DNA of 59,899 nt. It comes from Herpetosiphonaceae bacterium. GTDB taxonomy: Bacteria > Chloroflexota > Chloroflexia > Chloroflexales > Kallotenuaceae. Numbering within the stretch: the first letter of the stretch is position 1; each line of letters starts with the position of its first letter. The position numbers were made by a program, and so were the translations under genes. The stretch lies in the NCBI GenBank assembly GCA_036402055.1, contig DASWTQ010000297.1:1-59899 (forward strand), given 5' to 3'. A model generated the notes under the pieces. The model worked only from the letters and a program-made list of their open reading frames with translations, was not told where the DNA came from and made no database searches. Shown here piece by piece: positions 3,889 through 59,899 of the stretch.

Positions 3889-5076
3889 CTAGTGCTGCTT
3901 GCCATTGCTGGCTCCTACCTCCAGGCTGAGAATCTCAGGAGAAGTGCGTCGTCGAGCCAGCGCGTGAGTCGTCAGTTTGGGGTTGCCGGTAATAACGCGA
4001 TACAGCTTGAGCGCCTGGGCCACCACCTGATCCATGTTGTAGTACTTATATGTCGCCAGCCGTCCTACAAAATGCACATCCGGCCGAGTGTCGGCCAAGG
4101 CTTTGTACTGCTCATACAGGAGCGTATTCTCGGGCCGGGGAATCGGATAATATGGATCGCCCTCAGCCTGCGGATATTCATAGACGATACTGGTTTTGGC
4201 GTGCTCCTGACCGGTCAAGTATTTGAACTCCGTCACCCGAGTATAGGCGTAATCGTTGGGATAGTTGATCACTGGCGCGGACTGATGTACAGGCAGGTTG
4301 TGGGTTTCATGCTTGAACTCCAGCGAACGGTAGGGCAGCTTGCCATAGCGACAGTCAAAAAACGCATCGATCGGCCCGGTATAGATCATCTCGCGATAGG
4401 GGATGATTCCTGCGATCTCGCGATAATCGGTGTTGAGCATGATCTTGATGTTAGGATGATCGAGCATCTTTTCAAACATGCGCGTATAGCCGTGTAGCGG
4501 CATCGCCTGGTATGTGTCGGTGAAGTAGCGGTCGTCGCGATTGGTGCGGGTGGGTACGCGCGCCGTTACCGAGGCGTCCAGCTCCGACGGATCGAGGCCC
4601 CACTGTTTACGCGTATAGCCGCGAAAGAATTTTTCGTACAGCTCGCGCCCGACTTTGCTGACCACGACGTCTTCCGAGGTGCGGATCTGTTCCCGTGGCT
4701 CCGCGACCGAGGCCAGAAACTCGTCAAGTTGAAAGGCCGTCAGGTTCAGGCCATACATCTGGTTGATCGTATCGAGGTTGATCGGCATCGGCACCAGCTG
4801 CCCGTCTACACAGGCCCGGACGCGGTGCTGATACGCGCGCCATTCGGTGAAGCACGACAGATAATCAAACACCTCGCGCGAGTTGGTGTGGAAAATGTGC
4901 GGCCCATAGGTATGGATGAGAATCCCGTCGTCATTGTAGCGATCGTACGCATTGCCGCCGATATGCGGCCGCACGTCACAGATCAGCACGCGCCGGTTTG
5001 CTCCGCGTGCCAGCCGCTCAGCGATCACGCTGCCAGCAAAGCCCGCCCCGACAATCAGATAATCAAAGGGAGTCAT
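3889..5076 (-). CDS. glf: UDP-galactopyranose mutase
   Basis: 395 aa. The N-terminal FAD fold is DYLIVGAGFAGSVIAERLA...HIGGNAYD. YGPHIFHT, YTRKQWG, YTGPIDAFFDCRYGKLPYRSLEF and FVGRLATYKYYNMDQV are collinear with E. coli Glf as I remember it. Confidence 0.9.
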   Translation of the reverse strand: MTPFDYLIVGAGFAGSVIAERLARGANRRVLICDVRPHIGGNAYDRYNDDGILIHTYGPHIFHTNSREVFDYLSCFTEWRAYQHRVRACVDGQLVPMPINLDTINQMYGLNLTAFQLDEFLASVAEPREQIRTSEDVVVSKVGRELYEKFFRGYTRKQWGLDPSELDASVTARVPTRTNRDDRYFTDTYQAMPLHGYTRMFEKMLDHPNIKIMLNTDYREIAGIIPYREMIYTGPIDAFFDCRYGKLPYRSLEFKHETHNLPVHQSAPVINYPNDYAYTRVTEFKYLTGQEHAKTSIVYEYPQAEGDPYYPIPRPENTLLYEQYKALADTRPDVHFVGRLATYKYYNMDQVVAQALKLYRVITGNPKLTTHALARRRTSPEILSLEVGASNGKQH

Positions 5077-5166
5077 CGCGCTTCCTTACCCTGCTGTGAA
5101 CGAGACGAAGTGGCCGATCCCTGCGCTGGACGTAATAGCTCCTGATTGCGCAGAGATCGGCTGGTG

Positions 5167-5508
5167 CTATGCGCCGCGCTGCTGAGATAATCCGAACAGG
5201 CCCAGCAGCGATTTACTGCTGTCGTCAGTGATCCAGGCGGGTCGATCAACCCAGGGCTTGGTTGCTGCGGTTGCTGCATCGAAGCTCAGGGTGACCTGCT
5301 GCTCGGAGACCGACGCGACGGCGCTGCATGGGATATACAGCTTGCCACCCCAGCCGATGGCAGACGACTGCACCTCAAGGCAGGTTTCATCCACACACGG
5401 CGTCACGGTATCAACTGGCTCCGTTCCCCACCACATCCGAGTGATCGTACCCAGGCTCACACCATCGGACGTTTGGACTGCCTGCCCTTCATGAACTTGC
5501 TCGATCAT
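5167..5508 (-). CDS. Hypothetical protein, possibly PRC-barrel/DUF2171-like
   Basis: The ORF-track frame is 5167-5577. The internal ATG at 5508 (MIEQVHEGQAVQTSDGVSLGTITRMWWG) has AGGAGGGA about 8 nt upstream, so I prefer it. The family assignment is weak. Confidence 0.45.
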   Translation of the reverse strand: MIEQVHEGQAVQTSDGVSLGTITRMWWGTEPVDTVTPCVDETCLEVQSSAIGWGGKLYIPCSAVASVSEQQVTLSFDAATAATKPWVDRPAWITDDSSKSLLGLFGLSQQRGA

Positions 5509-5972: not shown

Positions 5973-7202
5973 ATGCGTGCAATTCTAACCAACCTGGGAT
6001 CAACCGGCGATGTATGGCCGTTTATTGCTCTGGCGGCCGAGCTGCGCCGTCATGGTCACGAGCCGATCCTGGCACTGTCTCCTAACTTTGCGGGTCTGGC
6101 CAAGCAGCACGGGCTGGCGTTCGCGCCGATCGGGCAGGAGCTTGAGCTCGAAAAGCTACGCGACATGGCGGCCGATATTTTGACCGCCCGCAACTCGGCC
6201 GCGCAAACGCGGCCGCTGCTCGTCTCAGCGCTGCAAGGACTGCCGGAGATGTTCCGCGAGCTGCGGGACCTTTCTCACGATGCCGACGTGATGATCTGTG
6301 GAACGGCGCAGCCGGCCGGACGCATGGTTCACGAGACGCTTGGCATTCCGTTTGTTTCGATCCATACCGTGAGCTTCGCCGTCTGGGGCACCACTGCGCT
6401 GCGGCAGTCCGTCGCGCCCGTCATCAACGCCTACCGGGTCCGAGAAGGTCTCCCACCATTGCGTGATCCGATCGTCGCCGATGCGCATTCGCCCCAGCTG
6501 GCGATCCATGCCGTCAGTCGCTACGTGCTGCGACGGCCCGCCGACTGGCCGTCGCACTATCATGTAACCGGCTATTTTTACCTGGACGACGCCGACGACT
6601 GGCAGCCGCCCGCAGATCTGGTTGAGTTTTTTGCTGCCGGCGAACCGCCTGTCGTGATCGGCTTCGGCAGCGCCATGCACCACGATCCAGCCGCGCTTAC
6701 CAATCTGGTGTTGGAGGCGATTCGCCGCGCCGGCTGTCGTGCCATTCTTCAGCAGGGCTGGAGCGGCCTGGGCGAGCGCGAGATTCCCGAGAACGTGCAT
6801 ATCATCGGCTTCGCGCCCCATAGCTGGCTCTTTCCTCGCGCGGCGTGTGTCGTTCATCACGGCGCGACCGGCACCACTGGAGCCACGTTTCGCGCGGGTG
6901 TTCCCGGCGTCTATGTGCCCCACGCCTATGAACATCCTCTGAACGCCGAGGTCGCTCGACAGCTGGGCTGCGCGGGACCGGCAATTCCCTACGCCCGTCT
7001 GACGGCTGAGCGGCTCGGCTCGGCGATCGCGGCCACCCTGGCGAATCCGAGCTACCGGCAAGCGGCCGCCGCCCTGGGCGAGCAGGTTCGGGCCGAGCAA
7101 GGCGTGCAGGCCGCTCGGCAGTTGATCGAGCAGCTGCTGGCGGAAGCAGCGGTAGCCCAGCCGCGCGCGGCCAGCCAGATCTCGCTCAATTCGATCGGAT
7201 AG
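5973..7202 (+). CDS. GT1-family (MGT/UDP-glycosyltransferase-like) glycosyltransferase
   Basis: 409 aa. The N-terminus is MRAILTNLGSTGDVWPFIALAAELRRHGHE. The C-terminal nucleotide-sugar motif is HHGATGTTGATFRAGVPGVYVPHAYEHPLNA (an HHGGAGT-type motif). The gene sits directly upstream of the FAAL-FkbH gene on the same strand. Confidence 0.8.
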   Translation: MRAILTNLGSTGDVWPFIALAAELRRHGHEPILALSPNFAGLAKQHGLAFAPIGQELELEKLRDMAADILTARNSAAQTRPLLVSALQGLPEMFRELRDLSHDADVMICGTAQPAGRMVHETLGIPFVSIHTVSFAVWGTTALRQSVAPVINAYRVREGLPPLRDPIVADAHSPQLAIHAVSRYVLRRPADWPSHYHVTGYFYLDDADDWQPPADLVEFFAAGEPPVVIGFGSAMHHDPAALTNLVLEAIRRAGCRAILQQGWSGLGEREIPENVHIIGFAPHSWLFPRAACVVHHGATGTTGATFRAGVPGVYVPHAYEHPLNAEVARQLGCAGPAIPYARLTAERLGSAIAATLANPSYRQAAAALGEQVRAEQGVQAARQLIEQLLAEAAVAQPRAASQISLNSIG

Positions 7203-7293
7203 TACTGGTCAAGTATTGACGGGCTGCGCGCAGTGTCACGACCCTCCAGACACGCGGGTCATGGCAGGCTGGCCCCCAAAGAAAGAGGCTTCC

Positions 7294-12951
<5,658 letters not shown>

Positions 12952-20651: not shown

Positions 20652-20740
20652 CGAGTGCCGGGCAGGACGGTGGGGATCATGGGAGGCAGCATGCGCCTCC
20701 GATCCCCATTGCTTGAGCGACATGTGGAGACGGATGAGCT

Positions 20741-49900: not shown

Positions 49901-52636
49901 GGCGGGAGCGGTCGGCATCGTTCCGCCCGTGCGCACAGTGGGATCGCCCGGCTCGATCCAGTAGCGCTGGCGCTCGAACGGGTACGTCGGCAGCGAAACT
50001 CGATGACGCTCTTCGTCGGCGTGCACCGCCGGCCAGTCGATCTCGACGCCTGACTGCCAGAGCTGGCCCAGCGTGCCGACGATGTATTCCAGATTCGACT
50101 GCTGATCCTGCGGATGGCGCAGTGAGGCATAGACCAGCGCTTTCTCGCTCCGCGCATGGTGGCGGCGAACCAGCGTGGCCAGCGTCTGGCCGGGGCCGAC
50201 TTCCAGGAAAACCGGATGTTGCTCTTGCATCAGCACGGCGATTCCATCGGCAAAGCGCACGGCCTGGCGCAGATGCATCGTCCAGTAGCTCGGATCGGTC
50301 GCCTGCTCGGCGGTGATCCAGGTTCCGGTCACATTCGAGATAAAACGCAGCTCGGGCGCGTGGCGGGCGGTCGCCTGCACACAGGCCGTGAACTCGTCCA
50401 GGATCGCATCCATCATCGGCGAGTGGAACGCGTGCGATGTATGCAGACGGCGGCTTTCGTGACCGGCGGCGCGCAGCTGCTCCGCCAGGGCGTCGATCGC
50501 CGCCTCGGTCCCCGAGACCACTGTGCGCTCGGCCTCGTTGATCGCGGCGATCGACAGCTCACTGCCCAGGTACGGGGCGATGGCCGCCTCGGAAAGCGGG
50601 ACCGTCAGCATCGCGCCGTGCGGCAGGCTTTGCATCAGCTTGCCACGTGTCGCGACCAGCTTCAACGCATCTTCCAGCGAGAAGACGCCCGCCAGCGTGG
50701 CCGCGACGTACTCGCCGATCGAGTGGCCGATCATGGCTTGCGGCTGAAGTCCCCAGGCCATCCAGAGCTTCGCCAGCGCGTACTCGCTCACAAACAGCGC
50801 CGGCTGCGTCAGCCAGGTCTGGCTCAGCTCTGCATCGCTCGCCGCCGCGTGGCCGTTACCGTTGGCCTGCGCATCGCCGGGGCTGAGGATGCTGCGCAGA
50901 TCGAGGCCCAGATGCGGCTTGAGGAGCGTGCAGCACTCATCGACGATCGCGCGGAACTGCGGCTCGGCAGCGTACAGCTCGCGGATCATCTGCGGATACT
51001 GCGAACCCTGGCCCGAGAACATAAAGATGATCGCGCGCTCCTCGCCCTCGTACGTCGTGCTGCCCAGTCTGCTCGGCTCGGGACCGGAAAGCAGGGCGAC
51101 GGCTTCCTCAGTTGAGCGACAGGCCAGCGTGCGGCGGTAGCTGAAGGCTTTGCGTCCCACTTGCAGCGTGTAGGCTACATCGGCCAGATCGAGATCCGGC
51201 CGTTCGCCCAGGTAGGCGCCAAGCCTGCGCGTCGCGGCTTCCAGGGCACTGGCAGTTCGCGCCGAGAGCGTCAGGAGCTGTACAGGCCGGGCAGGGCGCC
51301 GCACTGCCGACTCCACCGGCGGCGCTTCCTGGAGAATCGCGTGCGCGTTGGTGCCGCCAATGCCGAACGAGCTGACGCCCGCGCGGCGTGGTGCATGGGG
51401 CCGCGCTGCCCACGGCGTCAGGCTGGTGACGACCGAGAACGGACTATGCGCGAAGTCGATCATCGGATTCGGCGCGTTGAAGTTCAGGCTCGGCGGGATC
51501 AGTTTGTGGTGCAGGCTGAGCGCGGCTTTGATCAGGCTGGTGACGCCCGCCGCCGCATCCAGGTGGCCGACATTACTTTTCACCGAGCCGATCGCGCAGA
51601 ACTGGGTTTTGCTGGTGCTGGTGCGATAAGCTTTGGTCAGCGCCTCGACCTCGATCGGATCGCCGAGCGGCGTGGCCGTGCCGTGCGCCTCCACGTAGTC
51701 GATCTCCTCGGCGTCGACATCCGCGTTGACCAGCGCCTGCGCGATTACCTGCGCCTGTCCCGCGACGGTCGGCGCTGCATAGCCGGCTTTGAGCGCGCCG
51801 TCGTTATTGATCGCGGAGCCGCGAATCACGGCGTAGATATGATCGTGGTCGGCGATCGCATCCTCCAGGCGCTTGAGAACCACAACCGCGACGCCGGTGT
51901 TGAAGACTGGTCCGCCGCCCTGCGCGTCGAAGGTGCGGCAGTGACCGTCAGGCGAGGACATGCCGCCCTCAAGGTGCCAGTAGCCGCCGTCGCGGTGCGT
52001 GGCGTGAACGGCGGTGCCGCCTGCCAGCGCCATGTCGCACTCCCAGTTGAGCAGGCTTTGACAGGCGACATGTGTTGCCACCAGCGAGGTTGAGCAGGCG
52101 CTCTGCACGGTATGGCTGGGGCCTTTGAGGTTCAGCTTGTAGGAGACACGCGTCGTCAGGTACGAGTTATCGTTGCCGACCTGGACCTGAAGCTGGTTGG
52201 CGGCCGTCATCAGATGCGGGTTGGTGGCGATGTTGAGCAACACATAGGTGCTCATCGCCGCGCCGCCAAACACGCCGACCGGGAAGGTGATCCGCGACGG
52301 ATCGTAGCCCGCATCCTCAAGCGACTCCCAGGCACATTCCAGGAAGTGGCGCTGCTGAGGGTCCATGAAGCTGGCCTCGCGCGGATTGTAGCCGAAGAAT
52401 CCGGCGTCGAACTCTTCCAGCGTTTCCAGGAAGCCGCCTGCTTTGACATATTTTGGATTGGCGATCAGCTCGTCGCTCAGACCAAAGGCGCGCAGATCCT
52501 CCTCGGTGTAGAAGGTAGTAAACTCTTCGCCCGCGCAGAGCTTGCGCCAGAACGCTTCCAGTGAGGGAGCCTGCGGATAGCGTCCCGCCATGCCAATAAT
52601 CGCAATATCTGTGTTCCGAATCGGGTAAGTGGACAT
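46973..52636 (-). CDS. Type I PKS module, KS - AT(malonyl-type) - KR - DH - ACP
   Basis: 1887 aa. KS is about nt 51332-52612 (SACSTSLVA, EAHGTATPLGDPIE, SNVGHLD). AT is about nt 50072-51034 (GHSIGE, HAFH). KR including its structural half is about nt 48533-49879 (GVYLITGGLGGIG). DH is about nt 47651-48481 (HPLLD...HWVLGEHRVLGTPTIPG, HPALMD). ACP is about nt 47102-47314 (FFELGGDSL). The acidic C-terminal tail is EEALLANIDQLSEADLDALLARL. Confidence 0.9.
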   Translation of the reverse strand: MSTYPIRNTDIAIIGMAGRYPQAPSLEAFWRKLCAGEEFTTFYTEEDLRAFGLSDELIANPKYVKAGGFLETLEEFDAGFFGYNPREASFMDPQQRHFLECAWESLEDAGYDPSRITFPVGVFGGAAMSTYVLLNIATNPHLMTAANQLQVQVGNDNSYLTTRVSYKLNLKGPSHTVQSACSTSLVATHVACQSLLNWECDMALAGGTAVHATHRDGGYWHLEGGMSSPDGHCRTFDAQGGGPVFNTGVAVVVLKRLEDAIADHDHIYAVIRGSAINNDGALKAGYAAPTVAGQAQVIAQALVNADVDAEEIDYVEAHGTATPLGDPIEVEALTKAYRTSTSKTQFCAIGSVKSNVGHLDAAAGVTSLIKAALSLHHKLIPPSLNFNAPNPMIDFAHSPFSVVTSLTPWAARPHAPRRAGVSSFGIGGTNAHAILQEAPPVESAVRRPARPVQLLTLSARTASALEAATRRLGAYLGERPDLDLADVAYTLQVGRKAFSYRRTLACRSTEEAVALLSGPEPSRLGSTTYEGEERAIIFMFSGQGSQYPQMIRELYAAEPQFRAIVDECCTLLKPHLGLDLRSILSPGDAQANGNGHAAASDAELSQTWLTQPALFVSEYALAKLWMAWGLQPQAMIGHSIGEYVAATLAGVFSLEDALKLVATRGKLMQSLPHGAMLTVPLSEAAIAPYLGSELSIAAINEAERTVVSGTEAAIDALAEQLRAAGHESRRLHTSHAFHSPMMDAILDEFTACVQATARHAPELRFISNVTGTWITAEQATDPSYWTMHLRQAVRFADGIAVLMQEQHPVFLEVGPGQTLATLVRRHHARSEKALVYASLRHPQDQQSNLEYIVGTLGQLWQSGVEIDWPAVHADEERHRVSLPTYPFERQRYWIEPGDPTVRTGGTMPTAPAALSRKADLADWLYIPSWKRSQPPVPHTDEPRTWLVFVDNTWLSSACTQRLAASGDRIVTVGVGPEFAQIDTQQYVINPQQSGDYDHLLGRLAETGSLPHGIVYLWTAALAEGASPLERAEHDLAYGFYGLLALAQSLGRLKEQQPMRLHVVSSGMQAVANEPELHPTKAPLLGLCKVIAQEYKHISCQSIDVALPAPASTQAQQLVEQLWLELHSAAVDPVIAYRGMYRWAQTYEAAPLPEPSQPIADRLRTGGVYLITGGLGGIGLEVARELARSIQPKLVLTSRTPLPDREAWSIWLATTDDAAAATREKIRQVQALEAAGAEVLLFPADITDPIHVEALVRETIGTFGTLHGVFHAAGLPGAGIIQLKRPEDAVAVLAPKIQGTLLLDSALRQVPLDFMVLFSSITAITGGMGQADYCAANSFLDAFAHANSQQGVFTVAINWDAWQKVGMAVATEGLRALPGQPQGKAAEHPLLDTYTSESPERAQFTTEFDPRTHWVLGEHRVLGTPTIPGATYPEVVYSAFTRHRGSSAVEIRDLLFMTPFMVGESERKSLRVLLEGGADELAVRISSQATVLGRTRWKDHVVGKVAALPVAAQPVLDLPGILIRCAPVDLHVTTESRAKMAEFVDVGPRWNCIKAVYAGTGEGLAVLELDESFVAADERFAIHPALMDIATSFAIQSIGEGNYLPLSYARVQIYGAFPKTLYCYVRLPHDTTPGDETVVIDVAIMDAEGNVAVNIEGFTVKRVAPDALVRLYESAQSDALDSTPAETDSLAPGGLAEGLRTLKDAILPEEGIAVLRRILALNHLPQIIVSTRDLAGVIDEVNRFDPHRLLTEMAGQSATLRVETYPRPDLPTPYVAPGTELEQRIATLWQDVLCIEQVGIHDNFFELGGDSLLGTQIMVRAKEAGFELSPNQFFQHQTIAELAQLLGDAPAPDGSSGDGAVEEEALLANIDQLSEADLDALLARLTNE

Positions 52637-52657: not shown

Positions 52658-55600
52658 CTAGCCAATCTGCTCCACCCGGCGCGGGCGGCGCTCCTCGCGT
52701 AGCTCACGGCGTTTATCGGCGCGGGCGCGGCTATCGTCGACGGCGAGCGAGTCGTTGGCGGCGCTCGGCGCGCGGCGCTGCTCGACAATCTGGGCCAGGG
52801 CGCTGACGGTTGGGCCTTCAAACAGGTTGACGGCCGGAATATCGACGCCCAGGGCTGTGCTTAGTCGGGCGACCGCCTCAATGCCGACCAGTGAGTCGCC
52901 GCCCAGCTCAAAGAAGTTGTCGTGGATACCGACCTGCTCGATGCTCAGCATTTCTTCCCACACGCCGGCGATCGCGCGCTCGGTCTCGCTGCGCGGCGGA
53001 GCGTACGAGCCGCTCAGGGCGGGCCGGGGTCGCTTGACGGCAGCCGCAGGCTCCGCGCTCCTGGATTTGGCTTCGGCAATGCGCTCGTTGACGACCTCGT
53101 CGGTGTAGCGGATCGATGCATACAGGTCGCGCACGGAAACGATCACCTGCTGGAAGCCACGGTAAGCCAGAATCCGCTCCAATGCCTCCGCGCCCTCTGA
53201 CGGCCGGATCTCCTCGATCTGGTTAGCTGGCGGCACGGCCGGCGCGGCAAGATCCACGGTTCCAGCCAGCGCGCGCAGCTCAGCCGCCGGATCGTTGACG
53301 CGCTTCTGGGTAAAGCGCTCGATCTCAACCAGCGCGTCGCCGTCCTCGTTCATCAGCACGATGTCGAAGGTAATCGTATCGCGGTCGGGATTTTCCTCGG
53401 CGCGGAAGCGGGCATAGCTAAAGATCTTGGGCTGGAGCTGGCCTTTGATCTTCAAGCTGTTATAGGTCAGCGGCAAATAGTGTCCATCCGCCGCCAGAAA
53501 GTTCTTGGCAATGCCGGCCGCGCGATCGAGCAGCGCCGGATGAAAGACCATCTGTGCGAAGTCGCCGGCGAAGGCTTCGGGAAGATGCAGCTCAAGCAGG
53601 ACTTCGTTCACGCCGATATGCACTCGCTGGACGCTGTGCCAGCGCGGCCCCAGATCTTCCTCGCGCTGCTCGGCGGGCAGGATCAGCTCCTGGACGTTAC
53701 AGCGCTCACGCAGCGCGGCCAGATTATGGCGTCGCAGCGGCTCGGCCGGCGACAGGCTGACTTTGCCGACGGTGTACACATGATCGGCCTCGTGCTCGTG
53801 GCTGTGGATCGCGAAGGAGTAGCCCGTGGCGGCCGGCTCGATCACCAGCCGCACCTCGCGGCGAGCACCGTCGGGAACACGGAGCGGCGCGACAAAGAAC
53901 ACTTCGCGAAATTCAACCGCGTGCGTGCGCGGGTGAGCCTGGAGCGCGGCGCGTACCATCTCGAAGTAGGCCACGCCGGGAATAACTGGATGCCCCAGGA
54001 TGCGATGTTCGTCCAGCACCCAGTGTTTTTCGACGGTAAAATCGGTGGCGAAAACTTGCTGGGCGGCGGTATGCCTCAGGCAGCGCTCCAGCAGCGGATG
54101 CTGCGTGAACTGGATCGGCGCTGCCGGCGCGCTGAGCGGCGTCTGCGCTGGAACCGCCGCCATGCCGACCTCGTCCCACGCGCCCCAGTTGACGGCGATG
54201 GTCGGAATGCCGGTACGCGCGGTATGCTCGTGCGCGAACGCATCCAGGAACGCATTCGCGGCCGTATAATCGATCTGGCCCAGCCGTCCCACCACCGACG
54301 TCAGCGACGAGCACAGCAGCCAGAAGTCAAGCTGAGTGCCGGCGAAGATCCGCTCCAGCACGTGCGTGCCCTGGATCTTCGGCGCCAGCACCTGTGCGGC
54401 GACATCGCGCTGCTTGAGCTGAGCGAGACCGCCGGCCGGAACGCCCGCAGCGTGGATCACGCCGTGGATCGTGCCGAAGCGCTGGTGGACCAGCTCCACA
54501 ACCTGGCGCAACTGTGTCTCGTCGGTCACATCTGCCTGGCAGATCAGCACCTCGGCGCCATCGGCTTCGAGCGCCTGGATCTGGCGAATCTTGCGCGTCG
54601 TTCCGTCAGACGCGGCGTGCGTCGCCAACCACGCGTCCCACTCCGCGCGCGCGGGAAACGCCGACCGGCCTACCAGCACCAGTCTGGCTGCCGCCCGCCG
54701 GCCAAGGTGAGCGGCAAAGGTCAGCCCCAGACCGCCGAGGCCGCCGGTGATCAGATACACACCGGTTTGTCGCAGCGGCGGCGCGCTCGGTGCTTCCAGC
54801 CGAATCGGCTCGTACACCCGCTGCCAGCGGTTGCCGCCGCGATAGGCGACCGCCGAGTCGCCGGTGGCCGTCGTCAGCTCGCGCTGGAGCTGATCCAGCA
54901 GGCGGTTGTGCTGCCAGCTGCCGGGGGGCGGCACGGCTACGTCGATGCTGCGGCAGTGGATGTTCGGGTATTCGCGGGGAATGACCAGACACGGCCCGAA
55001 GATCGTTGCCTGCTCCGGGTTGAGCAGGTCGCCGCCGAGCACCTCCTGCGCGCTGTCGGAAAGCACAAGCAGCCTCACGGGATCGGTCACGCGCTGGGTG
55101 CCAAGCGCCTGCGCCAGGGCCAGCAAGCTGTAGAAGCCGTGTTCGAGCGGCTCGTGGGTGCCGAGGCTCCAGCCATGCACGATCGTCTGCGGCAGCAGCA
55201 ACTGCGCGTGCAGCTCCACCAGCAGAGCCTCGTAGTCGGCGCGGCGCTGCGGGTTGACCTGGTAGCGCAGCCGATCGTGACGCCGGAACTCCGCGCCGGG
55301 CTCGACGATGATCAGGTTTTGGGCGATAGTGGACAGCCGCTGCGCCAGCTGTTTGCCGGTGTCGTCGCCGGCAAAGACCAGCCAGGTCTCGGCCACGGGT
55401 GCGGGCTGGCTGTCCAGCGCGACGACCTCAGTCGAGCGCTGCCAGGTCGGCTGGTAGAACCACTCCTCGATCGCCGGGTTTTTGCGGAGCGCATCTTCAA
55501 GCGAGTGCGTGGCCGGCGTGGCGGCATGGCCCTGAAAGTCGATCCAGTGGCGCTGGCGCTCGAAGGGATACGTCGGCAGCGGCAGCCGGCGCCGCGACTC

Positions 55601-58198
55601 GTGGGCGTAGAAGGCTTCCCAATCGATCTCGATTCCGCTGAGCCACAGGTGGCCGATCGTATGCAGCAGAAACGTCAGCTCGTCCTGCGGCTCCTGCGGA
55701 TGCGGCAGTGATGCCAGCATAAACTGGTTCGGCTTTTTGTGCGGGTGCCAGCGCGCGATCGTGCGCAGCGTGCGGCCGGGACCGACCTCAAGCAGCACCG
55801 CATCAGGATCACGCAGCAGCTCGGCCAGCCCATCGGCGAAGCGCACCGTCTGGCGGATGTGCCGCACCCAGTACTGCGGATCGGTCGCCTCGACGGCGGT
55901 GATCCAGGTGCCGCTGACGTTCGAAAGATAGGGCATCTGCGGCGGCTGGAGCTTGACGCGGCTGATCGCCTGTGCGAACTGCTCAAGCATCGGCTCCATC
56001 ATGTGTGAGTGGAAGGCGTGCGAGGTATGCAGCGTGCGCGGCAGCAGGCCCTGGGCGGTCAGCTCCGCCGCAAACTCGTCGATCGCCGCTTGCTCGCCGG
56101 CCACCACGCACAGCGCCGGACCGTTGACCGCCGCCAGCGCGAGCCGCTCGTTGAGCAGCGGCCGCACCGCCTCCTCGCTCAGCGGCACGACCAGCATCGC
56201 ACCGGCCGGGAGCTGCTGGATCAGCTGTCCACGCAGCGCCACCAGCATGAGCGCGTCTTCCAGCGAGAATACTCCGGCCAGACAGGCCGCCACATACTCG
56301 CCGACGCTGTGGCCGATCAGCGCGTACGGCTTGAGGCCCCAGGCCATCCACAGCTTGGCCAGCGCATATTCGATCACGAACAGCGCAGGCTGGGCATACT
56401 GCGTCTGCTCCAGGATCTCCGCGCCGGGAGTATGGCCGTTGGTTTTGGCTGTTTGCGCGTCGCCTGGCGCGGCGGGATAGAGCACGCTGCGCAGATCGCA
56501 GCCGAGATGCGGCTTGAGCAGCTCACAGCAGCGATCGATCTCCGCGCGGAAGACCGGCTCTGTGGCGTAGAGCTGCGCGGCCATGCCCACATGCTGCGCG
56601 CCCTGGCCGGGAAACATAAACGTGAGCGGACGGCTGATCGGCTCCTGGACCCGCGAAAACACCTGCTCCGGTACCAGCGCCTCCAGCATCGTCGCCGCCT
56701 GCGCGGTATCGTGGCAGACCAGCATCCGCCGGTGCGCGAATGAGCGCCGCCCGAGTTGAAGCGTGTAGGCGACATCGGCGATGTTGAGCGCCGGGTGATC
56801 CTTGAGATAGCGGCTAAGATCGATGCATGCCTGCTCCAGCGCCGAGTCGGTGCGCGCGGAGACCACCAGCAGCTGCGCGGCCCTGGCCGGGCCGGAAGGC
56901 GCCGGCTCGGGCGCTTCTTCGAGAACCAGATGCGCGTTGGTGCCGCCCAGGCCAAACGAGCTGACTCCTGCGCGGCGCGGCGTCGCTCCCGGCGACCACT
57001 CACGCAGGCGATCGTTCACGAAAAACGGGCTACTGGCAAAGTTGATGTGCGGATTGGGCTGCGTAAAGTGGATGCTCGGCGGAATCTGGCGATGCTTGAG
57101 CGCGAGCACGGTTTTGATCAGCCCGGTCACGCCGGCCGCCGTATCCAGGTGGCCGATGTTGCCCTTGACCGAGCCGATCGCGCAGAACTGGTTTTTTTCT
57201 GTTCGGCGGCGGAAGGCTTGCGTCAGCGCCTGCACCTCGATCGGGTCGCCGATCGGCGTGGCGGTGCCGTGCGCCTCCACGTAGCCGATGCTTTCGGGAT
57301 CGACCTCGGCCAGCATGTGCGCAACGCCGATGACTTCGGCCTGACTCTCCGCGCCGGGAGCCGTGTAGCCGATCCGATCCGAGCCGTCGTTGTTGATCGC
57401 CGCGCCACGGATCACGGCATGAATCGTATCGCCGTCGGCCAGCGCCTCGTCCAGCCGCTTGAGCACGACCAGCCCCACGCCGTTGCCGCCGACCGTTCCC
57501 TGCGCCTCAGCATCGAAGGGCCGGCAGGTGCCGTCGGGTGCGCCGATGCCGCTCTCGTGGTACAGGTAGCCGGTTTTTTGCGGCACGCTGATCGTCGCGC
57601 CGCCGGCCAGCGCGATGTCGCTCTGAGAGTTGAGCAGGCTCTGGCAGGCCATCACCACCGCGACCAGCGAGGTCGAGCAGGCAGTCTGCACCGTCACGAC
57701 CGGGCCGCGCAGATCGAGCTTGTAGGCCACGCGCGCGGTGAGATGATCGTGCTTGTTGTGGATGAACGATTGGAAGGTGTTCATCGTGCCGTGCAGACGA
57801 CCGGCGGCGGCCAGGTTGTAGAGCATATAGGTGTTGGCTCCCGCGCCGCCATACAGCCCGATCGCGCCCGAGTAGCGCGTCGGATCGTAGCCCGCCTGCT
57901 CCAATGCTTCCGAGGCGCACTCCAGAAAGAGGCGGTGCTGCGGATCGGTGATCTGCGCTTCGCGGGGCGACATGTCGAAGAACGCGGCGTCGAAGTGCTC
58001 GACGTTGTCGAGAATGCCGCGCGCTTTGACATACTGCCGGCTGTGCAGCTCGGCGGCATCGATCGCCGCGAGGTCAAGCTCCGCCTCGTCGAAGTGGGTG
58101 ATCGAATCTTTGCCGTCGCGCAGATTCTCCCAGAACTGCTCGATGGTGTTGGCGCCCGGAAAACGGCCCGCCATGCCGATGATTGCGATGCTATTCAT
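52658..58198 (-). CDS. Type I PKS module, KS - AT(malonyl-type) - KR - DH - ACP
   Basis: The ORF-track frame starts at TTG 58219. ATG 58198 (MNSIAIIGMAG) follows the upstream stop as TAAcATG with GGGAGAAG upstream, so I prefer it. KS is about nt 56921-58198 (TACSTSLVA with Cys codon 57677-57679, EAHGTATPIGDPIE, GNIGHLD). AT is about nt 55670-56632 (GHSVGE, HAFH). KR is about nt 54155-55477 (GVYLITGGLGGLG at 54725-54748). DH is about nt 53294-54106 (HPLLE...HWVLDEHRILGHPVIPG, HPALLD). ACP is about nt 52775-52996 (FFELGGDSL). Confidence 0.9.
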   Translation of the reverse strand: MNSIAIIGMAGRFPGANTIEQFWENLRDGKDSITHFDEAELDLAAIDAAELHSRQYVKARGILDNVEHFDAAFFDMSPREAQITDPQHRLFLECASEALEQAGYDPTRYSGAIGLYGGAGANTYMLYNLAAAGRLHGTMNTFQSFIHNKHDHLTARVAYKLDLRGPVVTVQTACSTSLVAVVMACQSLLNSQSDIALAGGATISVPQKTGYLYHESGIGAPDGTCRPFDAEAQGTVGGNGVGLVVLKRLDEALADGDTIHAVIRGAAINNDGSDRIGYTAPGAESQAEVIGVAHMLAEVDPESIGYVEAHGTATPIGDPIEVQALTQAFRRRTEKNQFCAIGSVKGNIGHLDTAAGVTGLIKTVLALKHRQIPPSIHFTQPNPHINFASSPFFVNDRLREWSPGATPRRAGVSSFGLGGTNAHLVLEEAPEPAPSGPARAAQLLVVSARTDSALEQACIDLSRYLKDHPALNIADVAYTLQLGRRSFAHRRMLVCHDTAQAATMLEALVPEQVFSRVQEPISRPLTFMFPGQGAQHVGMAAQLYATEPVFRAEIDRCCELLKPHLGCDLRSVLYPAAPGDAQTAKTNGHTPGAEILEQTQYAQPALFVIEYALAKLWMAWGLKPYALIGHSVGEYVAACLAGVFSLEDALMLVALRGQLIQQLPAGAMLVVPLSEEAVRPLLNERLALAAVNGPALCVVAGEQAAIDEFAAELTAQGLLPRTLHTSHAFHSHMMEPMLEQFAQAISRVKLQPPQMPYLSNVSGTWITAVEATDPQYWVRHIRQTVRFADGLAELLRDPDAVLLEVGPGRTLRTIARWHPHKKPNQFMLASLPHPQEPQDELTFLLHTIGHLWLSGIEIDWEAFYAHESRRRLPLPTYPFERQRHWIDFQGHAATPATHSLEDALRKNPAIEEWFYQPTWQRSTEVVALDSQPAPVAETWLVFAGDDTGKQLAQRLSTIAQNLIIVEPGAEFRRHDRLRYQVNPQRRADYEALLVELHAQLLLPQTIVHGWSLGTHEPLEHGFYSLLALAQALGTQRVTDPVRLLVLSDSAQEVLGGDLLNPEQATIFGPCLVIPREYPNIHCRSIDVAVPPPGSWQHNRLLDQLQRELTTATGDSAVAYRGGNRWQRVYEPIRLEAPSAPPLRQTGVYLITGGLGGLGLTFAAHLGRRAAARLVLVGRSAFPARAEWDAWLATHAASDGTTRKIRQIQALEADGAEVLICQADVTDETQLRQVVELVHQRFGTIHGVIHAAGVPAGGLAQLKQRDVAAQVLAPKIQGTHVLERIFAGTQLDFWLLCSSLTSVVGRLGQIDYTAANAFLDAFAHEHTARTGIPTIAVNWGAWDEVGMAAVPAQTPLSAPAAPIQFTQHPLLERCLRHTAAQQVFATDFTVEKHWVLDEHRILGHPVIPGVAYFEMVRAALQAHPRTHAVEFREVFFVAPLRVPDGARREVRLVIEPAATGYSFAIHSHEHEADHVYTVGKVSLSPAEPLRRHNLAALRERCNVQELILPAEQREEDLGPRWHSVQRVHIGVNEVLLELHLPEAFAGDFAQMVFHPALLDRAAGIAKNFLAADGHYLPLTYNSLKIKGQLQPKIFSYARFRAEENPDRDTITFDIVLMNEDGDALVEIERFTQKRVNDPAAELRALAGTVDLAAPAVPPANQIEEIRPSEGAEALERILAYRGFQQVIVSVRDLYASIRYTDEVVNERIAEAKSRSAEPAAAVKRPRPALSGSYAPPRSETERAIAGVWEEMLSIEQVGIHDNFFELGGDSLVGIEAVARLSTALGVDIPAVNLFEGPTVSALAQIVEQRRAPSAANDSLAVDDSRARADKRRELREERRPRRVEQIG

Positions 58199-58199
58199 G

Positions 58200-59899
58200 T
58201 TAATTTTTTCTTCTCCCAAGCTGTTGCTGCCGCTCCAGCGCGGCTTTCTGCTTCTGCGCCCGCGCCTCGGCCTTGTCGAGGGCTGTGCTGCTGGTCTGCG
58301 CCTGGCTCAGGTGCTGCGCCAATTTGCTGACGGTCGGGTACTGGAACAGCGCGATCAGGTTGAAGCTGCGGTCGAAGTGCGGCGTGAGCTTATCGTAGGC
58401 TTGCGTCACCAGCAGCGAGTGCGCGCCAAGGTCAAAAAAGTTATCGTGGATGCCGACGCGCTCCACATGCAGCAATTCCTGCCACACCTCGGCGATCAGC
58501 CGCTCGGTGGGCGTGGTTGGCGCGACATACGGCTCGCTGCTCACGGCGATCAGGCTTTCGGGGCTGGGCAGCTGACGCCGATCAACTTTGCCGCTCGGCG
58601 TCAGCGCGAATGATTTCACGCACGCGATCTGGCCGGGAACCATAAACTCGGGCAATGTCTGCCGCAGCAGAGATCGCAGCTCACTGCTGAGATTGCCGGT
58701 TTCGGCAGCCGGCTGCGGGAGCACGTAGGCCACGAGCTGCGGATTGCTCAGCGCATCGCTCGATACAGCGACCACGGCCTGCTGAATCGCCGGATGCTGC
58801 TGCAAGATCGCCTCGATCTCGCCCAGCTCGATGCGCAGCCCGCGCAGCTTCACCTGTGTATCGACGCGCCCCAGGAATTCGATCCGGCCGTCTGCGAGGT
58901 AGCGCGCCCGATCGCCGGTGCGGTAGAGCCGCGCCCCGTGTTCGCCGCTGAAGGAATCAGGGATGAATCGCTCGGCGGTCAGCTCGGGGCGTGCGACATA
59001 GCCTCGGGCAACACCGGCACCACCGATGTACAGCTCGCCGGCCACACCAGGCGGCAGCAGGTTGCCCCGCCGGTCCAGTACGTAGCAGCGCACATTCGCG
59101 ATCGCCCGTCCGATCGTGGGTGTGGCGTTCGCATGCAGGCGGCAAACTGCGGCATCGACGGTGGTTTCGGTCGGGCCGTAGACGTTATAGGCTTGTAGCT
59201 GCGGGACGTTTGTCAGCCGAGTCCACAGCGTTTCGTCGAGCGGCTCGCCGCCGACCAGCAGCGCTGCCGGTAGCTGACCGTCCAGCAGTCCCGCCGCCAG
59301 CAGCTCGCGCAGCTGCGTCGGCGTGCAGTCCAGCACATCGAGCTGCTGCTCGCGAATAAAGGCGCAGAGCTGAGCGCCGCTCAGGCGGATCTCCTCAGGC
59401 ACGATCACGATCGTGTGACCGCGCAGCACCTGAATCCACTGCTTGACCGAGCCGTCGAAGACCAGCGGCGCGTTCATGCTGACGCGCAGCGCCGGCTGGA
59501 GTTCGTCGTAGATCGCGTGCTGGAGCGCCGTCGCAAGATTGACCACGCTGCGCTGCTGGACCATTACGCCTTTGGGCCGTCCGGTCGAGCCCGAGGTGTA
59601 GATGATGTACGCTAGCTGCTCGGGCTGAACGTGAATCTGCGGATTGGTCGCCGGCTCCTGGTCGATCTGTTGCTGCTGAGTGTCGAGGGCGACGATCGGA
59701 ATGTGCGCCGGCAGATGTTCGCGCAGCGCTGCCTGTGTGATCACCGCCGCTGCCTGCGACTCGTCCAGCATGTAGCGCAGGCGCTCGACGGGATAGGTCG
59801 GATCGAGCGGTACATACGCGCCGCCCGCTTTGAGAATGCCCAGCACACCAACCAGCATCTCGATCGAGCGCGGCAGGCACAGCCCAACGCGCGCCTCCA
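58200..59899 (-). CDS. NRPS fragment, ...A(Glu-like) - T (5' end beyond the right window edge)
   Basis: The frame stays open upstream of the first Met to nt 59899 (…[30 protein letters not shown], the A2 core). Motifs present are [41 protein letters not shown] and [12 protein letters not shown]. The hand-extracted code DGKDLGVVDK matches the published Glu code DAKDLGVVDK at 9 of 10 positions. The C-terminal tail is basic. Confidence 0.85.

What the first reader, a model, noticed from the sequence alone, without database searches (positions are those of the whole stretch)
3889..59899. Convergent two-operon NRPS/PKS assembly line whose combination of features I do not recognise from any characterised pathway
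Within the window I count ten carrier domains, six A domains, a FAAL, an FkbH unit, seven C domains, one E, two KS and a single TE. They are distributed over a plus-strand operon (5973-19177) and a minus-strand operon (59899 down to 28360) that converge on a sugar-transport island.
Departures from colinearity cluster together:
- an ester-forming lipid-glycerate start;
- a protein ending in C;
- a protein starting with A-A;
- a C-C didomain with an internal docking head;
- an A-less T;
- KR-before-DH PKS modules.
A single TE and matching tail/head docking motifs argue for one product. I would expect an acyl-glycerate-capped, D-residue- and Orn-containing peptide carrying a Glu-derived unsaturated ketide arm. 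It may be branched at Orn, glycosylated, and trimmed at export. This is a hypothesis assembled from motifs, and I could not search MIBiG or the literature.
Basis: inference. Interest (0 to 1): 0.8.

Follow-up and report, generated by a model that had tools for sequence, protein, structure and literature searches.

The report
Orphan two-arm lipopeptide-polyketide gene cluster
This is a real but cut-off and uncharacterised gene cluster for a hybrid peptide-polyketide from an uncultured (probably Chloroflexota) bacterium; it joins an already known fatty-acyl-glycerate starter to a rarely seen junction where two separately started chains seem to be merged, so it is an interesting orphan pathway, not a new kind of system.

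Summary
The window is a whole metagenomic contig, so the minus operon is cut at 59899 and the counts are lower bounds.

The cluster has two separable units.
- **Starter cassette** (glf, GT, FAAL-ACP-C-FkbH-T, C-A-T-E-C). The loading bimodule is the known vioprolide/corramycin type. A Herpetosiphonaceae MAG carries the same cassette, ending in the same terminal C with the same A code.
- **Core** (Glu-like A-T, two KS-AT-KR-DH-ACP, C-A(Orn)-T, then a C-head-C synthetase). It is syntenic with uncharacterised Ardenticatenales and Promineifilaceae MAG clusters, which keep the KR-DH order, the Orn code and the C-head-C junction under purifying selection.

g15 itself (A-A-T-C-head-C-T-C-A-T-TE) has no close homologue among 5.8 billion proteins.

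"One product" is plausible but unproven (about 0.45). A split C|A linker, a Nostoc precedent, composition and the single TE support it. The cassette may instead be self-contained. Each oddity has a precedent, and the combination is uncharacterised. Verdict: new variant of a known kind, interest about 0.5.

The parts
3889..5076 (-). g03, UDP-galactopyranose mutase (Glf). Probable supplier of UDP-galactofuranose for the GT.
   Evidence: TIGR00031 scores 396 bits against a cut-off of 303.75, and PF03275 matches. A glf 77.5% identical sits next to another FAAL-FkbH gene in L025.
5973..7202 (+). g04, GT1-family (EryCIII/MGT-like) glycosyltransferase.
   Evidence: PF06722 and PF03033 match. A GT lies directly upstream of the FAAL-FkbH gene in three loci: the window, the P0003 contig and L018 (86% identical). 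In L019 a GT4 domain is fused to the next NRPS.
7216..12951 (+). g05, loading bimodule FAAL (7363-9030), ACP (9121-9345), C (9406-10728, motif PHIVADF), FkbH (11347-12303), T (12640-12831). The database gene call starts at the ATG at 7294. The protein has an acidic C-terminal tail.
   Evidence: P0001 is 1885 aa. The architecture matches the vioprolide and corramycin start (PMC10099666, PMC8949500).
12965..19177 (+). g06: head (12986-13045), C (13097-14446), A (14507-16099, code DTENIGTVEK), T (16178-16366, GGDSI), E (16421-17764), terminal DCL-type C (17885-19117). The protein ends in C.
   Evidence: It is 51% identical over its full length to the L019 GT-C-A-T-E-C protein, with the same end and the same A code.
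19584..24273 (+). g07-g10, CUT2-type monosaccharide ABC importer (binding protein, double ATPase, two permeases). Its best matches are YtfQ, YtfR, YtfT and YjfF (galactofuranose). Probably host genes and not biosynthetic.
   Evidence: best-scoring families for g07-g09 (g10 ties with AraH), all below the equivalog cut-offs. Composition differs from both operons.
28360..31467 (-). g13, polytopic membrane M28 metallopeptidase at the end of the minus operon. Its role in maturation is speculative.
   Evidence: PF04389 at E 1.9e-35, with hydrophobic N- and C-terminal regions.
31442..32746 (-). g14, MFS efflux pump (Mef/EntS-like). Its start overlaps the stop of g15 by 4 nt.
   Evidence: and the coordinates.
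32743..43494 (-). g15: A1 (41866-43341), A2 (40315-41763), T1 (40039-40230), C1 (38641-39975), internal head-like motif (38470-38562), C2 (37102-38424), A-less T2 (36829-37011), C3 (35428-36762), A3 (33859-35361), T3 (33592-33768), TE (32815-33519).
   Evidence: There is no close homologue. A2-T1-C1 and head-C2 are colinear with the L002 and L017 large NRPS.
43545..46892 (-). g16: head, C (45405-46763), A (43884-45344, Orn code DVGEVGSIDK), T (43608-43802), acidic tail.
   Evidence: Its orthologs L002 and L017 CAT2 have the code DVGESGTIDK.
46973..52636 (-). g17, PKS module: KS (51479-52612), AT (50069-51028, malonyl type), KR (48551-49801), DH (47639-48478), ACP (47102-47293), acidic tail.
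   Evidence: Orthologs are 71% (P0242), 60% (P0367) and 59% (P0357) identical with the same domain order.
52658..58219 (-). g18, PKS module: KS (57065-58195), AT (55631-56623), KR (54170-55381), DH (53285-54100), ACP (52787-52981).
58200..59899 (-). g19, truncated ...A (58587-59897, Glu-like code DGKDLGVVDK) and T (58317-58505). Its N-terminus lies beyond the contig end.
   Evidence: Its orthologs in L002 and L017 are C°-A-T (code DGKDLGVVNK) with a TauD gene upstream.

Best explanation
The region is an orphan, contig-truncated hybrid NRPS-PKS biosynthetic gene cluster built from two evolutionarily separable units. In this genome they most likely cooperate to make one glycosylated, two-armed lipopeptide-polyketide.

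**Unit 1 (glf, GT, g05, g06)**
- The FAAL loads a fatty acid on the ACP.
- FkbH loads glycerate on T.
- The intervening C domain esterifies glycerate with the fatty acid, as in vioprolide and corramycin.
- A GT using UDP-Galf from Glf probably decorates this head group.
- g06 adds one residue (code DTENIGTVEK, probably cationic) and epimerises it to D.
- g06 then presents the chain to its terminal DCL-type C domain.

**Unit 2 (g19 to g15)**
- A Glu-like starter on g19 is extended twice with malonate. Each round is fully reduced and dehydrated, giving a 2,4-dienoyl chain.
- g16 couples this chain to Orn.

**Junction (inferred)**
- g06's terminal C works in trans with g15's C-less entry module (A1/A2-T1).
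- The acidic tail of g16 docks on the head-like motif between g15 C1 and C2.
- Orn-S-T(g16) then serves as acceptor for C1, which delivers arm 1 to its second amine, and as donor for C2.
- T2, which has no A domain of its own, is loaded by the spare A domain.
- C3-A3-T3 adds the last residue, TE releases the product, and the MFS exports it.

**Shown versus inferred**
- Shown: domain content, intact catalytic motifs, conservation of both units elsewhere, and conservation of the C-head-C junction.
- Inferred: the trans C|A pairing, the branch at Orn, the glycosylation site, and any processing by the M28 peptidase.

The confidence of 0.45 applies to the merged single-product model joined through g15. 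That the region is an NRPS-PKS cluster built from these two units is near certain.
For: **Domain map and motifs:**

**Unit 1 is a conserved cassette**
- The GT is adjacent in three loci.
- glf is adjacent in two loci.
- L019 has FAAL-FkbH followed by GT-C-A-T-E-C, 51% identical to g06 with an identical A code.

**Unit 2 is a conserved core**
- It is syntenic with L002 and L017, which share the KS-AT-KR-DH-ACP order, the Orn-like code and the Glu-like starter code.

**The junction is conserved**
- L002 and L017 keep T-C-(degenerate A-sub relic)-head-C. The relic aligns to the g16 A-sub domain at 28% identity, E 9e-11.
- Their N-terminal C has HR in place of HH, so the main chain cannot enter there.
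- Ka/Ks between L002 and L017 is 0.12 for C_a, against 0.09-0.13 for working domains.
- Three tails match three heads.

**Links between the two operons**
- The plus operon has no TE or R domain and ends in C. g15 starts with an A domain that carries the second half of a canonical C-A linker, and g06 ends in the first half.
- In Nostoc L020 a g06_C2-type C domain is a standalone protein. Two genes downstream on the same strand lies an A-T-C-A-T-TE synthetase.
- Tetranucleotide signatures of the two operons correlate at 0.91-0.93, as high as within the minus operon (0.94). The island correlates at 0.80-0.83.
Against: - The g06 ortholog in L019 ends at the same residue after the same terminal C. 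It is followed by an MFS and an alpha/beta hydrolase, with no A-starting NRPS in the 2.6 kb seen downstream (3.9 kb more of the contig unseen). An Orn/DAP decarboxylase lies upstream, so release onto a free amine is possible.
- L002 and L017 show no cassette within 10 kb of their cores.
- The shared composition of the two operons is confounded by their shared NRPS domain content.
- The head motif has no structurally characterised homologue.
- Which A domain loads which T domain, and which nucleophile C1 uses, cannot be read from sequence.
- g19 is truncated, so the true start of arm 2 is unknown.
- There are no expression or chemical data.
Confidence: 0.45

Rival explanations
1. Two independent products. 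The plus operon (with glf and the GT) is a self-contained pathway. It makes a glycosylated acyl-glyceryl-D-aminoacyl conjugate, which the terminal C domain releases onto a soluble amine or alcohol, as a terminal C adds putrescine in glidonin. The minus operon makes its own branched or two-start peptide-polyketide and uses g15's A-A-T-C1 as a second initiation arm.
For: - L019 carries the same cassette with the same terminal C and the same A code. It is followed by an MFS and a hydrolase and preceded by an Orn/DAP decarboxylase.
- The L002 and L017 cores stand without the cassette within 10 kb.
- A compositionally distinct 9 kb island separates the operons.
- Release by a terminal C domain has a precedent (PMC10587159).
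Against: - The window holds no amine-forming gene and no second exporter for the plus operon.
- The C-A linker halves on g06 and g15 are complementary.
- Nostoc L020 shows the same C type working with an A-starting protein.
- The extra A1 domain of g15 is left unexplained.
Confidence: 0.35
2. One linear product with a different joint. g06's terminal C caps the free alpha-amine of the Glu-like starter on g19. The order would then be g05, g06, g19, g18, g17, g16, g15 (head-C2 onward), and A-A-T-C1 would be a small side arm.
For: - In L002 and L017 the starter module begins with a C-like domain that has no catalytic His (PALLADT). It cannot acylate its own starter.
- The g19 starter code is nearly identical to theirs.
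- This would place the acyl-glycerate at the N-terminus, as in vioprolide and corramycin (PMC10099666).
Against: - The N-terminus of g19 is missing, so no docking or linker evidence exists.
- The canonical C-A linker remnant is on g15 A1, not visibly on g19.
- L002 and L017 manage without such a cap.
Confidence: 0.1
3. The oddities are evolutionary debris. The C-head-C junction and the A-A pair are relics of deletions and fusions, and one C and one A are silent. The minus operon would then make an ordinary linear product, or the cluster is decaying.
For: - An A-sub relic sits between the two C domains in L002 and L017.
- Degenerate C domains exist in the relatives.
- A GH2 pseudogene lies nearby.
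Against: - All catalytic motifs of g15 A1, A2, C1 and C2 are intact.
- C_a has Ka/Ks 0.12 and the head 0.14 between L002 and L017, like working domains.
- There are no frameshifts or internal stops in 54 kb of ORFs.
- The main chain has no other active C domain through which to enter g15.
Confidence: 0.07
4. Assembly artefact: the contig is a chimera joining two unrelated clusters at the island.
For: GC content and tetranucleotide signature shift at the island and in the left flank.
Against: - The two operons share a signature (r = 0.91-0.93) that differs from the island on both sides. This is not what two unrelated genomes joined there would give.
- No repeat or other break signature was seen.
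Confidence: 0.03

Closest known systems
Vioprolide (VioA) and corramycin (ComK) loading bimodule, FAAL-ACP-C-FkbH/HAD-T
   Same: The domain order is identical. The FkbH has the DxDxT and Cys motifs, and a C domain sits between the acyl-ACP and the glyceryl-T. In vioprolide that C domain makes the fatty acid-glycerate ester, which is later removed (pre-drug) (PMC10099666, PMC8949500, PMC12397197; window).
   Different: - Here the bimodule is a separate protein, followed by C-A-T-E-C that ends in C.
- It is accompanied by a GT and by glf.
- The host is probably Chloroflexota, not a myxobacterium.
- The C motif is PHIVADF.
- Ester formation and later deacylation are untested.
- I had no VioA or ComK sequence to align.
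Uncharacterised clusters in Ardenticatenales (GCA_020634515.1, L017) and Promineifilaceae (GCA_054683925.1, L002) MAGs, and GCA_034436615.1 (L001)
   Same: The gene order is the same: starter A-T, two KS-AT-KR-DH-ACP, C-A(Orn-like)-T, then a large NRPS with T-C-head-C. The PKS genes are 58-71% identical.
   Different: - Their large NRPS starts with a degenerate C (HR) and has C-A-T after the junction. g15 starts with A-A and has an A-less T.
- No acyl-glycerate cassette was seen within 10 kb.
- L001 starts with FAAL-ACP-C-A(Gly code).
- None of these clusters is characterised.
Herpetosiphonaceae MAG cluster (GCA_036401895.1, L019)
   Same: FAAL-ACP-C-FkbH-T followed by head-C-A-T-E-C, 51% identical to g06. 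It has the same terminal C end and the same A code, DTENIGTVEK. Glycosyltransferase activity is attached.
   Different: - The GT belongs to the GT4 family and is fused to the NRPS.
- It is followed by an MFS (27% identical to g14) and an alpha/beta hydrolase.
- No PKS-Orn core was seen in the 25.6 kb read.
Non-linear (type C) NRPSs: mannopeptimycin C-A-T-E-C-A-T-C-T-E, the icosalide double-initiating NRPS, and the glidonin terminal C
   Same: They include an A-less C-T module loaded by a neighbouring A domain, two chains started on one synthetase, and a terminal C domain as the release or coupling catalyst (PMC8949500, PMC10587159).
   Different: None of them combines these features. None has a docking-head motif between tandem C domains or a tandem A-A entry. 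These are resemblances of logic, not sequence relatives.
PUFA synthase (PfaA) and enediyne PKS (KS-AT-ACP-KR-DH)
   Same: The KR precedes the DH in the polypeptide. This comparison comes from my own knowledge and was not tested here.
   Different: - Here the order occurs in single-use modular cis-AT modules that end in one ACP.
- The KR and DH are closest in sequence to trans-AT PksJ and MlnE domains.
- Nearest non-orthologous relatives (about 50% identical) lack DH Pfam domains in the precomputed lists.

Membership tests
Vioprolide/corramycin-type acyl-glycerate loading bimodule | Domain order FAAL-ACP-C-FkbH(HAD)-T on one polypeptide | tested here: met
   Searches give FAAL 50-605, ACP 636-710, C 731-1171, FkbH 1378-1696 and T 1809-1872.
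Vioprolide/corramycin-type acyl-glycerate loading bimodule | FkbH catalytic motifs: the HAD DxDxT motif and the acyl-enzyme Cys | tested here: met
   VDCDHTLW and LLSCRVLG are present. TIGR01686 scores 304 bits against a cut-off of 146.65.
Vioprolide/corramycin-type acyl-glycerate loading bimodule | The C domain forms an ester between the fatty acid and a glycerate hydroxyl, and the acyl group is removed at maturation | not testable with these tools
   Only the position and a variant motif (PHIVADF, catalytic second His kept) are visible. The chemistry is known from Auerbach 2018, as cited in PMC8949500.
Canonical modular cis-AT type I PKS module | Catalytically complete KS, AT, KR, DH and ACP | tested here: met
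   Cys/His/His, GHSxG plus HAFH, the KR Tyr, HxxxGxxxxP plus HPALxD, and GGDSL.
Canonical modular cis-AT type I PKS module | DH lies between AT and KR (order KS-AT-DH-KR-ACP) | tested here: not met
   In g17 the KR spans 946-1362 and the DH 1387-1666. g18 has the same order, and so do the orthologs.
Linear (type A) colinear NRPS | Every module is C-A-T, each T has its own A, and proteins join T-to-C | tested here: not met
   g06 ends in C. g15 begins A-A. g15 has C-C in tandem and an A-less T2.
Docking-domain mediated protein order (tail/head pairs) | Homology to a structurally characterised docking domain | tested here: not met
   The PDB sequence search finds nothing for the head. The assignment rests on its position and on recurrence of the motif.
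ClbP/XcnG-type N-acyl-D-Asn prodrug system | An Asn-specific first module with E, plus an S12-family membrane peptidase | tested here: not met
   The g06 A code DTENIGTVEK is not an Asn code (compare DATKIGEVG in L020). The peptidase belongs to family M28.
YtfQRT-YjfF galactofuranose ABC importer | Equivalog-level match of all four subunits | tested here: inconclusive
   These are the best-scoring families for the binding protein, the ATPase and one permease; the second permease ties YjfF with AraH at 226 bits. All scores are below the curated cut-offs (274/510, 624/850, 207/535, 226/363).

The most novel reading that the evidence does not exclude
The conserved T-C-head-C junction is a previously undescribed NRPS device for merging two independently initiated chains.
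- A carrier domain on a separate protein (here Orn-S-T of g16) docks on an internal head.
- That carrier is used first as acceptor by the upstream C domain and then as donor by the downstream C domain. The result is a doubly acylated (branched) ornithine.
- In this window the device has been coupled, through a trans C|A split, to a mobile glyco-acyl-glycerate starter cassette encoded on the opposite strand.
Probability: 0.25. Interest if true: 0.75.

Novelty: new variant of a known kind. Interest (0 to 1): 0.5.

Why it matters
- If the junction works as proposed, it adds a programmable branching or merging rule to NRPS logic: one carrier shared by two C domains through an internal docking site. 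That would be useful for engineering.
- It would also help predict structures from the many Chloroflexota and Acidobacteriota clusters that current colinear rules misread.
- The conserved glf, GT and FAAL-FkbH (plus C-A-T-E-C) cassette points to a family of glycolipid-like N-caps, beyond the myxobacterial vioprolide and corramycin pre-drug cases.
- If the two operons are independent, the window is simply two neighbouring orphan clusters from an uncultured bacterium. It would then be of routine genome-mining interest.

Tried and rejected
- **Extending the contig.** Exact-protein look-ups for g18, g17 and g05 found nothing. The window is the whole contig.
- **Full-length g15 homology search.** It timed out. 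The 2250-aa N-terminal query found only generic NRPS at 45-47% identity over about half the query.
- **GTDB genome scan with g16.** The best hit was 47% identical, so there is no close genome relative.
- **Census of C-head-C with the representative library.** The top 150 were swamped by giant synthetases. Only P0428 showed the same T-C-head-C arrangement, and P0439 and P0404 end in C plus a head-like helix. This is not a usable frequency estimate.
- **Literature phrase searches.** Searches for KS-AT-KR-DH, tandem C domains and convergent assembly lines gave no relevant bacterial precedent. A search on Chloroflexota orders found no characterised relative. The Auerbach 2018 paper is not held.
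- **Promoter and terminator scans.** Results were at chance level.
- **Rfam and tandem repeats.** Nothing was found.
- **MbtH-like gene.** None is present in the window.
- **A ClbP-like prodrug reading.** Rejected: the peptidase family is wrong and the A code is not Asn.
- **MFS orthology.** L019's MFS is not orthologous to g14 (27% identity), so it cannot link the cassette to the minus operon.

Full report
**What is in the window**

ORF listing and composition, with Pfam and NCBIfam scans and within-window phmmer mapping, give this map:

| Gene | Coordinates | Content |
|---|---|---|
| g01 | 1177-1698 (-) | HTH regulator |
| g02 | 2095-3279 (+) | unknown lipoprotein |
| g03 | 3889-5076 (-) | UDP-galactopyranose mutase |
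| g04 | 5973-7202 (+) | GT1 glycosyltransferase |
| g05 | 7216/7294-12951 (+) | FAAL-ACP-C-FkbH-T |
| g06 | 12965-19177 (+) | C-A-T-E-C |
| g07-g10 | 19584-24273 (+) | monosaccharide ABC importer |
| g11 | 24494-25138 (+) | ICMT-like methyltransferase |
| (remnant) | 25433-25997 (-) | GH2 pseudogene remnant |
| g12 | 26410-28224 (+) | secreted protein, unknown function |
| g13 | 28360-31467 (-) | membrane M28 peptidase |
| g14 | 31442-32746 (-) | MFS efflux pump |
| g15 | 32743-43494 (-) | A-A-T-C-C-T-C-A-T-TE |
| g16 | 43545-46892 (-) | C-A-T |
| g17 | 46973-52636 (-) | KS-AT-KR-DH-ACP |
| g18 | 52658-58219 (-) | KS-AT-KR-DH-ACP |
| g19 | 58200-59899 (-) | truncated ...A-T |

The window is a complete metagenomic contig. 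Its own proteins are listed with longest contig 59899, and exact look-ups found no longer copy. The minus operon is therefore cut, and all counts are lower bounds.

**Are the domains functional?**

- All ten carriers keep the Ser motif. The T domain before E has the GGDSI signature typical of that position.
- Both PKS modules have KS Cys/His/His, AT GHSxG with HAFH (malonyl type), the KR Tyr, and DH HxxxGxxxxP with HPALxD.
- FkbH has DxDxT and the SCR cysteine. The TE has GWSLG.
- The E domain has EGHGRE, RTVGWF and FNYLG, with NHLAIDG in place of HHxxxDG.
- The C domains keep the catalytic second His, with these variants: g05 PHIVADF, g06-C1 HHIITDA, g15-C2 HHIIADA, g15-C3 HHSIVDM.
- All six A domains have intact core motifs.

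I extracted the ten-residue A codes by alignment to a GrsA-Phe fragment recalled from memory, so they carry that caveat:

| Domain | Code | Reading |
|---|---|---|
| g16 A | DVGEVGSIDK | ornithine |
| g19 A | DGKDLGVVDK | Glu-like |
| g06 A | DTENIGTVEK | unassigned; two acidic pocket residues suggest a cationic substrate (inference) |
| g15 A1 | DAKNMGLANK | unassigned |
| g15 A2 | DALFYGLIAK | hydrophobic |
| g15 A3 | DINDLGIDIK | unassigned |

**The plus-strand unit is a known start inside a conserved cassette**

FAAL-ACP-C-FkbH(HAD)-T is the published loading bimodule of vioprolide and corramycin. There the C domain esterifies glycerate with a fatty acid, and the acyl group is later removed (PMC10099666, PMC8949500, PMC12397197). 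The 'ester-forming lipid-glycerate start' is therefore not new.

What I did not find described is its company:
- A GT sits directly upstream of the FAAL-FkbH gene in the window, in the P0003 contig and in L018. In L018 the GT is 86% and the FAAL-FkbH protein 75% identical.
- A UDP-Galp mutase 77.5% identical to g03 lies next to another FAAL-FkbH gene in L025.
- In a Herpetosiphonaceae MAG (L019) the FAAL-FkbH gene is followed by one protein with a GT4 domain, a head motif and C-A-T-E-C. This protein is 51% identical to g06 over its whole length. It stops at the same place after the terminal C and has the identical A code DTENIGTVEK.

The terminal C of g06 belongs to the DCL/dual clade, the type found after E domains. 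So 'a protein ending in C' is an ancestral property of a cassette: glf, GT, FAAL-FkbH and C-A-T-E-C. That cassette probably makes a glycosylated acyl-glyceroyl-D-Xaa unit.

**The minus-strand unit is a conserved Chloroflexota-type core**

g17 has full-length orthologs with the same KS-AT-KR-DH-ACP order:
- P0242, 71% identical (GCA_034436615.1)
- P0367, 60% identical (Ardenticatenales)
- P0357, 59% identical (Promineifilaceae)

All other top hits cover about 72% of g17, come from Chloroflexota and Acidobacteriota, and lack DH Pfam domains in the precomputed lists.

L002 and L017 are syntenic with g19-g15. Their order is TauD; C°-A-T (starter code DGKDLGVVNK, against g19 DGKDLGVVDK); two KR-DH PKS genes; C-A-T with an Orn-like code (DVGESGTIDK); then a 5200-aa NRPS.

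The C° of their starter module has no catalytic His (PALLADT). Together with the adjacent TauD gene, this recalls the 'interface' C-like domains that recruit beta-hydroxylases. That comparison is from my own knowledge and was not tested.

In L001 the equivalent module is FAAL-ACP-C-A(Gly code)-T fused to the first PKS. The 'Glu-derived ketide arm' is therefore the start of a chain in its own right. What precedes g19 in this organism is unknown.

The KR and DH are closest in sequence to trans-AT PksJ and MlnE domains. KR-before-DH is a peculiarity of sequence order and does not change the chemistry.

**The junction**

g15 has no close homologue among 5.8 billion proteins, but parts of it are colinear with the L002 and L017 large NRPS:
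- A2-T1-C1 aligns at 43% identity over 1100 aa.
- Head-C2 aligns at 46%.

Between the tandem C domains all three proteins carry the motif that otherwise marks the N-termini of C-starting proteins:

| Position | Motif |
|---|---|
| g06 N-terminus | LSPKRRALLAALL |
| g16 N-terminus | TEQKRALVAELL |
| g15 internal | LSAKKQALLQGLL |
| L002 internal | LSDSKRALLQKLL |

Three acidic tails of one type (g05, g17, g16) match these three heads one-to-one.

Four further observations bear on the junction:
- In L002 and L017 the segment between the first C and the head is a degenerate A-domain C-terminal subdomain. Pfam gives only E 0.06, but BLASTP against the g16 A-sub gives 28% identity over 90 aa, E 9e-11, with the A10 Lys replaced by Arg.
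- Their N-terminal C domain has HRLAADE, which lacks the catalytic His. The main chain arriving from the Orn module therefore cannot enter at the N-terminus and must enter at head-C.
- Ka/Ks between L002 and L017 is 0.12 for the upstream C, 0.14 for the head and 0.09 for the downstream C. The A and T domains give 0.13 and 0.10, and the two degenerate pieces 0.22-0.23. The upstream C is therefore maintained like a working domain.
- A further unrelated protein (P0428) shows T-C-head-C-A.

My reading is an inference. The Orn-loaded carrier of g16 docks exactly where the upstream C's own carrier would sit. That C domain uses it as acceptor, acylating the second amine of Orn with the arm built on T1. 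The downstream C then uses it as donor. The A-less T2 would be served by the spare A domain, as in mannopeptimycin (PMC8949500).

**Do the two operons make one product?**

For:
- The plus operon has no TE or R domain.
- g15's first module has no C domain.
- g06 ends in the first half of a canonical C-A linker (...FQKLLEAMAAQIDQPLGALIAPS). g15 begins, after a 24-aa leader, with the second half (AAERQKLLYAWNATTLDFPHDARIHDLIAEQAARTP). Compare the intact g16 linker FETVLQSMAANPDQRIDEIPLLDSVERRQLLVDWNTTARPYTVDRCIHDLIAEQAARTP. A2 lacks this element.
- In Nostoc L020 a C domain of the g06-C2 type (35% identical) is a standalone protein. Two genes downstream on the same strand lies an A-T-C-A-T-TE synthetase, so a trans C|A split occurs in this family.
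- The tetranucleotide signatures of the two operons correlate at 0.91-0.93, as high as within the minus operon (0.94). The island gives 0.80-0.83 and the left flank 0.73-0.75. This is confounded by shared domain content.

Against:
- The L019 ortholog ends identically and is followed by an MFS and a hydrolase. An Orn/DAP decarboxylase lies upstream, so C-mediated release onto a free amine, as in glidonin (PMC10587159), is a live alternative. About 14.7 kb of that contig could not be read.
- L002 and L017 show no cassette within 10 kb.
- There are no regulatory data, and the promoter and terminator scans were at chance level.

I put a single merged product at about 0.45 via g15 T1, plus 0.10 via capping of the g19 starter. 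Two separate products get 0.35.

**Accessory genes**

- g14 (MFS, Mef/EntS-like) overlaps the g15 stop by 4 nt, and g13 (M28) follows. Export is therefore a reasonable inference. Proteolytic 'trimming' is speculative and does not match the ClbP/XcnG system.
- For the binding protein, ATPase and one permease, the best-scoring families are the E. coli galactofuranose transporter YtfQRT-YjfF (the second permease ties with AraH), all below the equivalog cut-offs.
- Its GC3 (0.64-0.69) lies between the flank (0.48-0.53) and the biosynthetic genes (0.72-0.83). I regard it as host DNA that the two units flank. The shared galactofuranose theme with glf is noted but unexplained.

**Comparison and verdict**

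The thing is a type I PKS/NRPS hybrid cluster, which is a known kind.
- Its start is a member of the vioprolide/corramycin loading type. Sequence-level features are met; the chemistry is untested.
- It fails the tests for a colinear type A NRPS and for the canonical PKS domain order. It belongs with non-linear (type C) systems.
- Each departure has a precedent.
- The combination, and especially the conserved C-head-C junction and the A-A entry, is not found in any characterised pathway that I could reach. MIBiG was not available.

The organism is probably a member of Chloroflexota, judged only from the nearest relatives of the PKS and cassette genes. No close genome relative exists in GTDB representatives.

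Novelty: new variant of a known kind. Interest is about 0.5. A specialist would find the junction hypothesis worth testing, but the finding as stated is an orphan cluster with partly known parts.

Noticed in passing
window 25433-25997 (-): Two short ORFs are fragments of a GH2 glycoside hydrolase (Glyco_hydro_2_N, E 3.8e-10). This is a pseudogene remnant between the sugar importer and g12.
   Followed up: partly
window 19584-24273 (+) and 3889-5076 (-): For three of the four importer subunits the best family match is the galactofuranose transporter YtfQRT-YjfF (below cut-offs; the second permease ties with AraH). The cluster also encodes UDP-galactopyranose mutase. This shared galactofuranose theme may be coincidence or may reflect sugar salvage.
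   Followed up: partly
window 1-5900 against 5973-59899: There is a strong composition step. GC3 is 0.48-0.53 in g01 and g02, 0.64-0.69 in the transporter, and 0.72-0.83 in the biosynthetic genes. This suggests the biosynthetic units were acquired from a donor with higher GC content.
   Followed up: partly
window 15878-15913 (g06 A domain, residues ~970-1015): A low-complexity insertion (EEQENKEQRNKEQ...) lies between the A8 and A10 motifs of g06's A domain. It coincides with a 15-bp tandem repeat.
   Followed up: no
window 26410-28224 (+): g12 is a 604-aa secreted protein with no family match. It carries two copies of a FGYP...QYFER(A/E)R(M/L)EYHP motif near its C-terminus.
   Followed up: no
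L002 1-4385 and L017 1-4358: In the relatives the starter module has a C-like domain without any catalytic His (PALLADT), and a TauD-family gene lies directly upstream. This pattern recalls 'interface' domains that recruit beta-hydroxylases. The same arrangement may lie just beyond the window's right end.
   Followed up: partly
L019 1-9200: The Herpetosiphonaceae cassette is preceded by an Orn/DAP decarboxylase, two free carrier proteins, two acyl-CoA dehydrogenase-like genes, a PLP enzyme and a PPTase. This looks like a set for an unusual extender or amine unit.
   Followed up: no
L022/L023/L024 (metagenome contigs with P0069): A FAAL-FkbH gene is preceded by aspartate decarboxylase and a B12-radical SAM enzyme. 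It is followed by an NRPS with an MT domain and then a PKS. This is reminiscent of the corramycin cluster, which uses a radical-SAM methylation of glycerate.
   Followed up: no
P0439 and P0404: Two large NRPS proteins end in a C domain followed directly by a head-like helix (LSDKKRAALEKL, LSAAQREALKRRL). The head motif can therefore also sit at a C-terminus, which no explanation here accounts for.
   Followed up: no
window 1177-1698 (-): g01 carries two HTH_3 stretches. One matches the RstR-family repressor model just above its cut-off (83 against 80 bits). A strong sigma-70-like site (11 of 12 matches) lies at 1719-1747 (+), just outside the gene.
   Followed up: no
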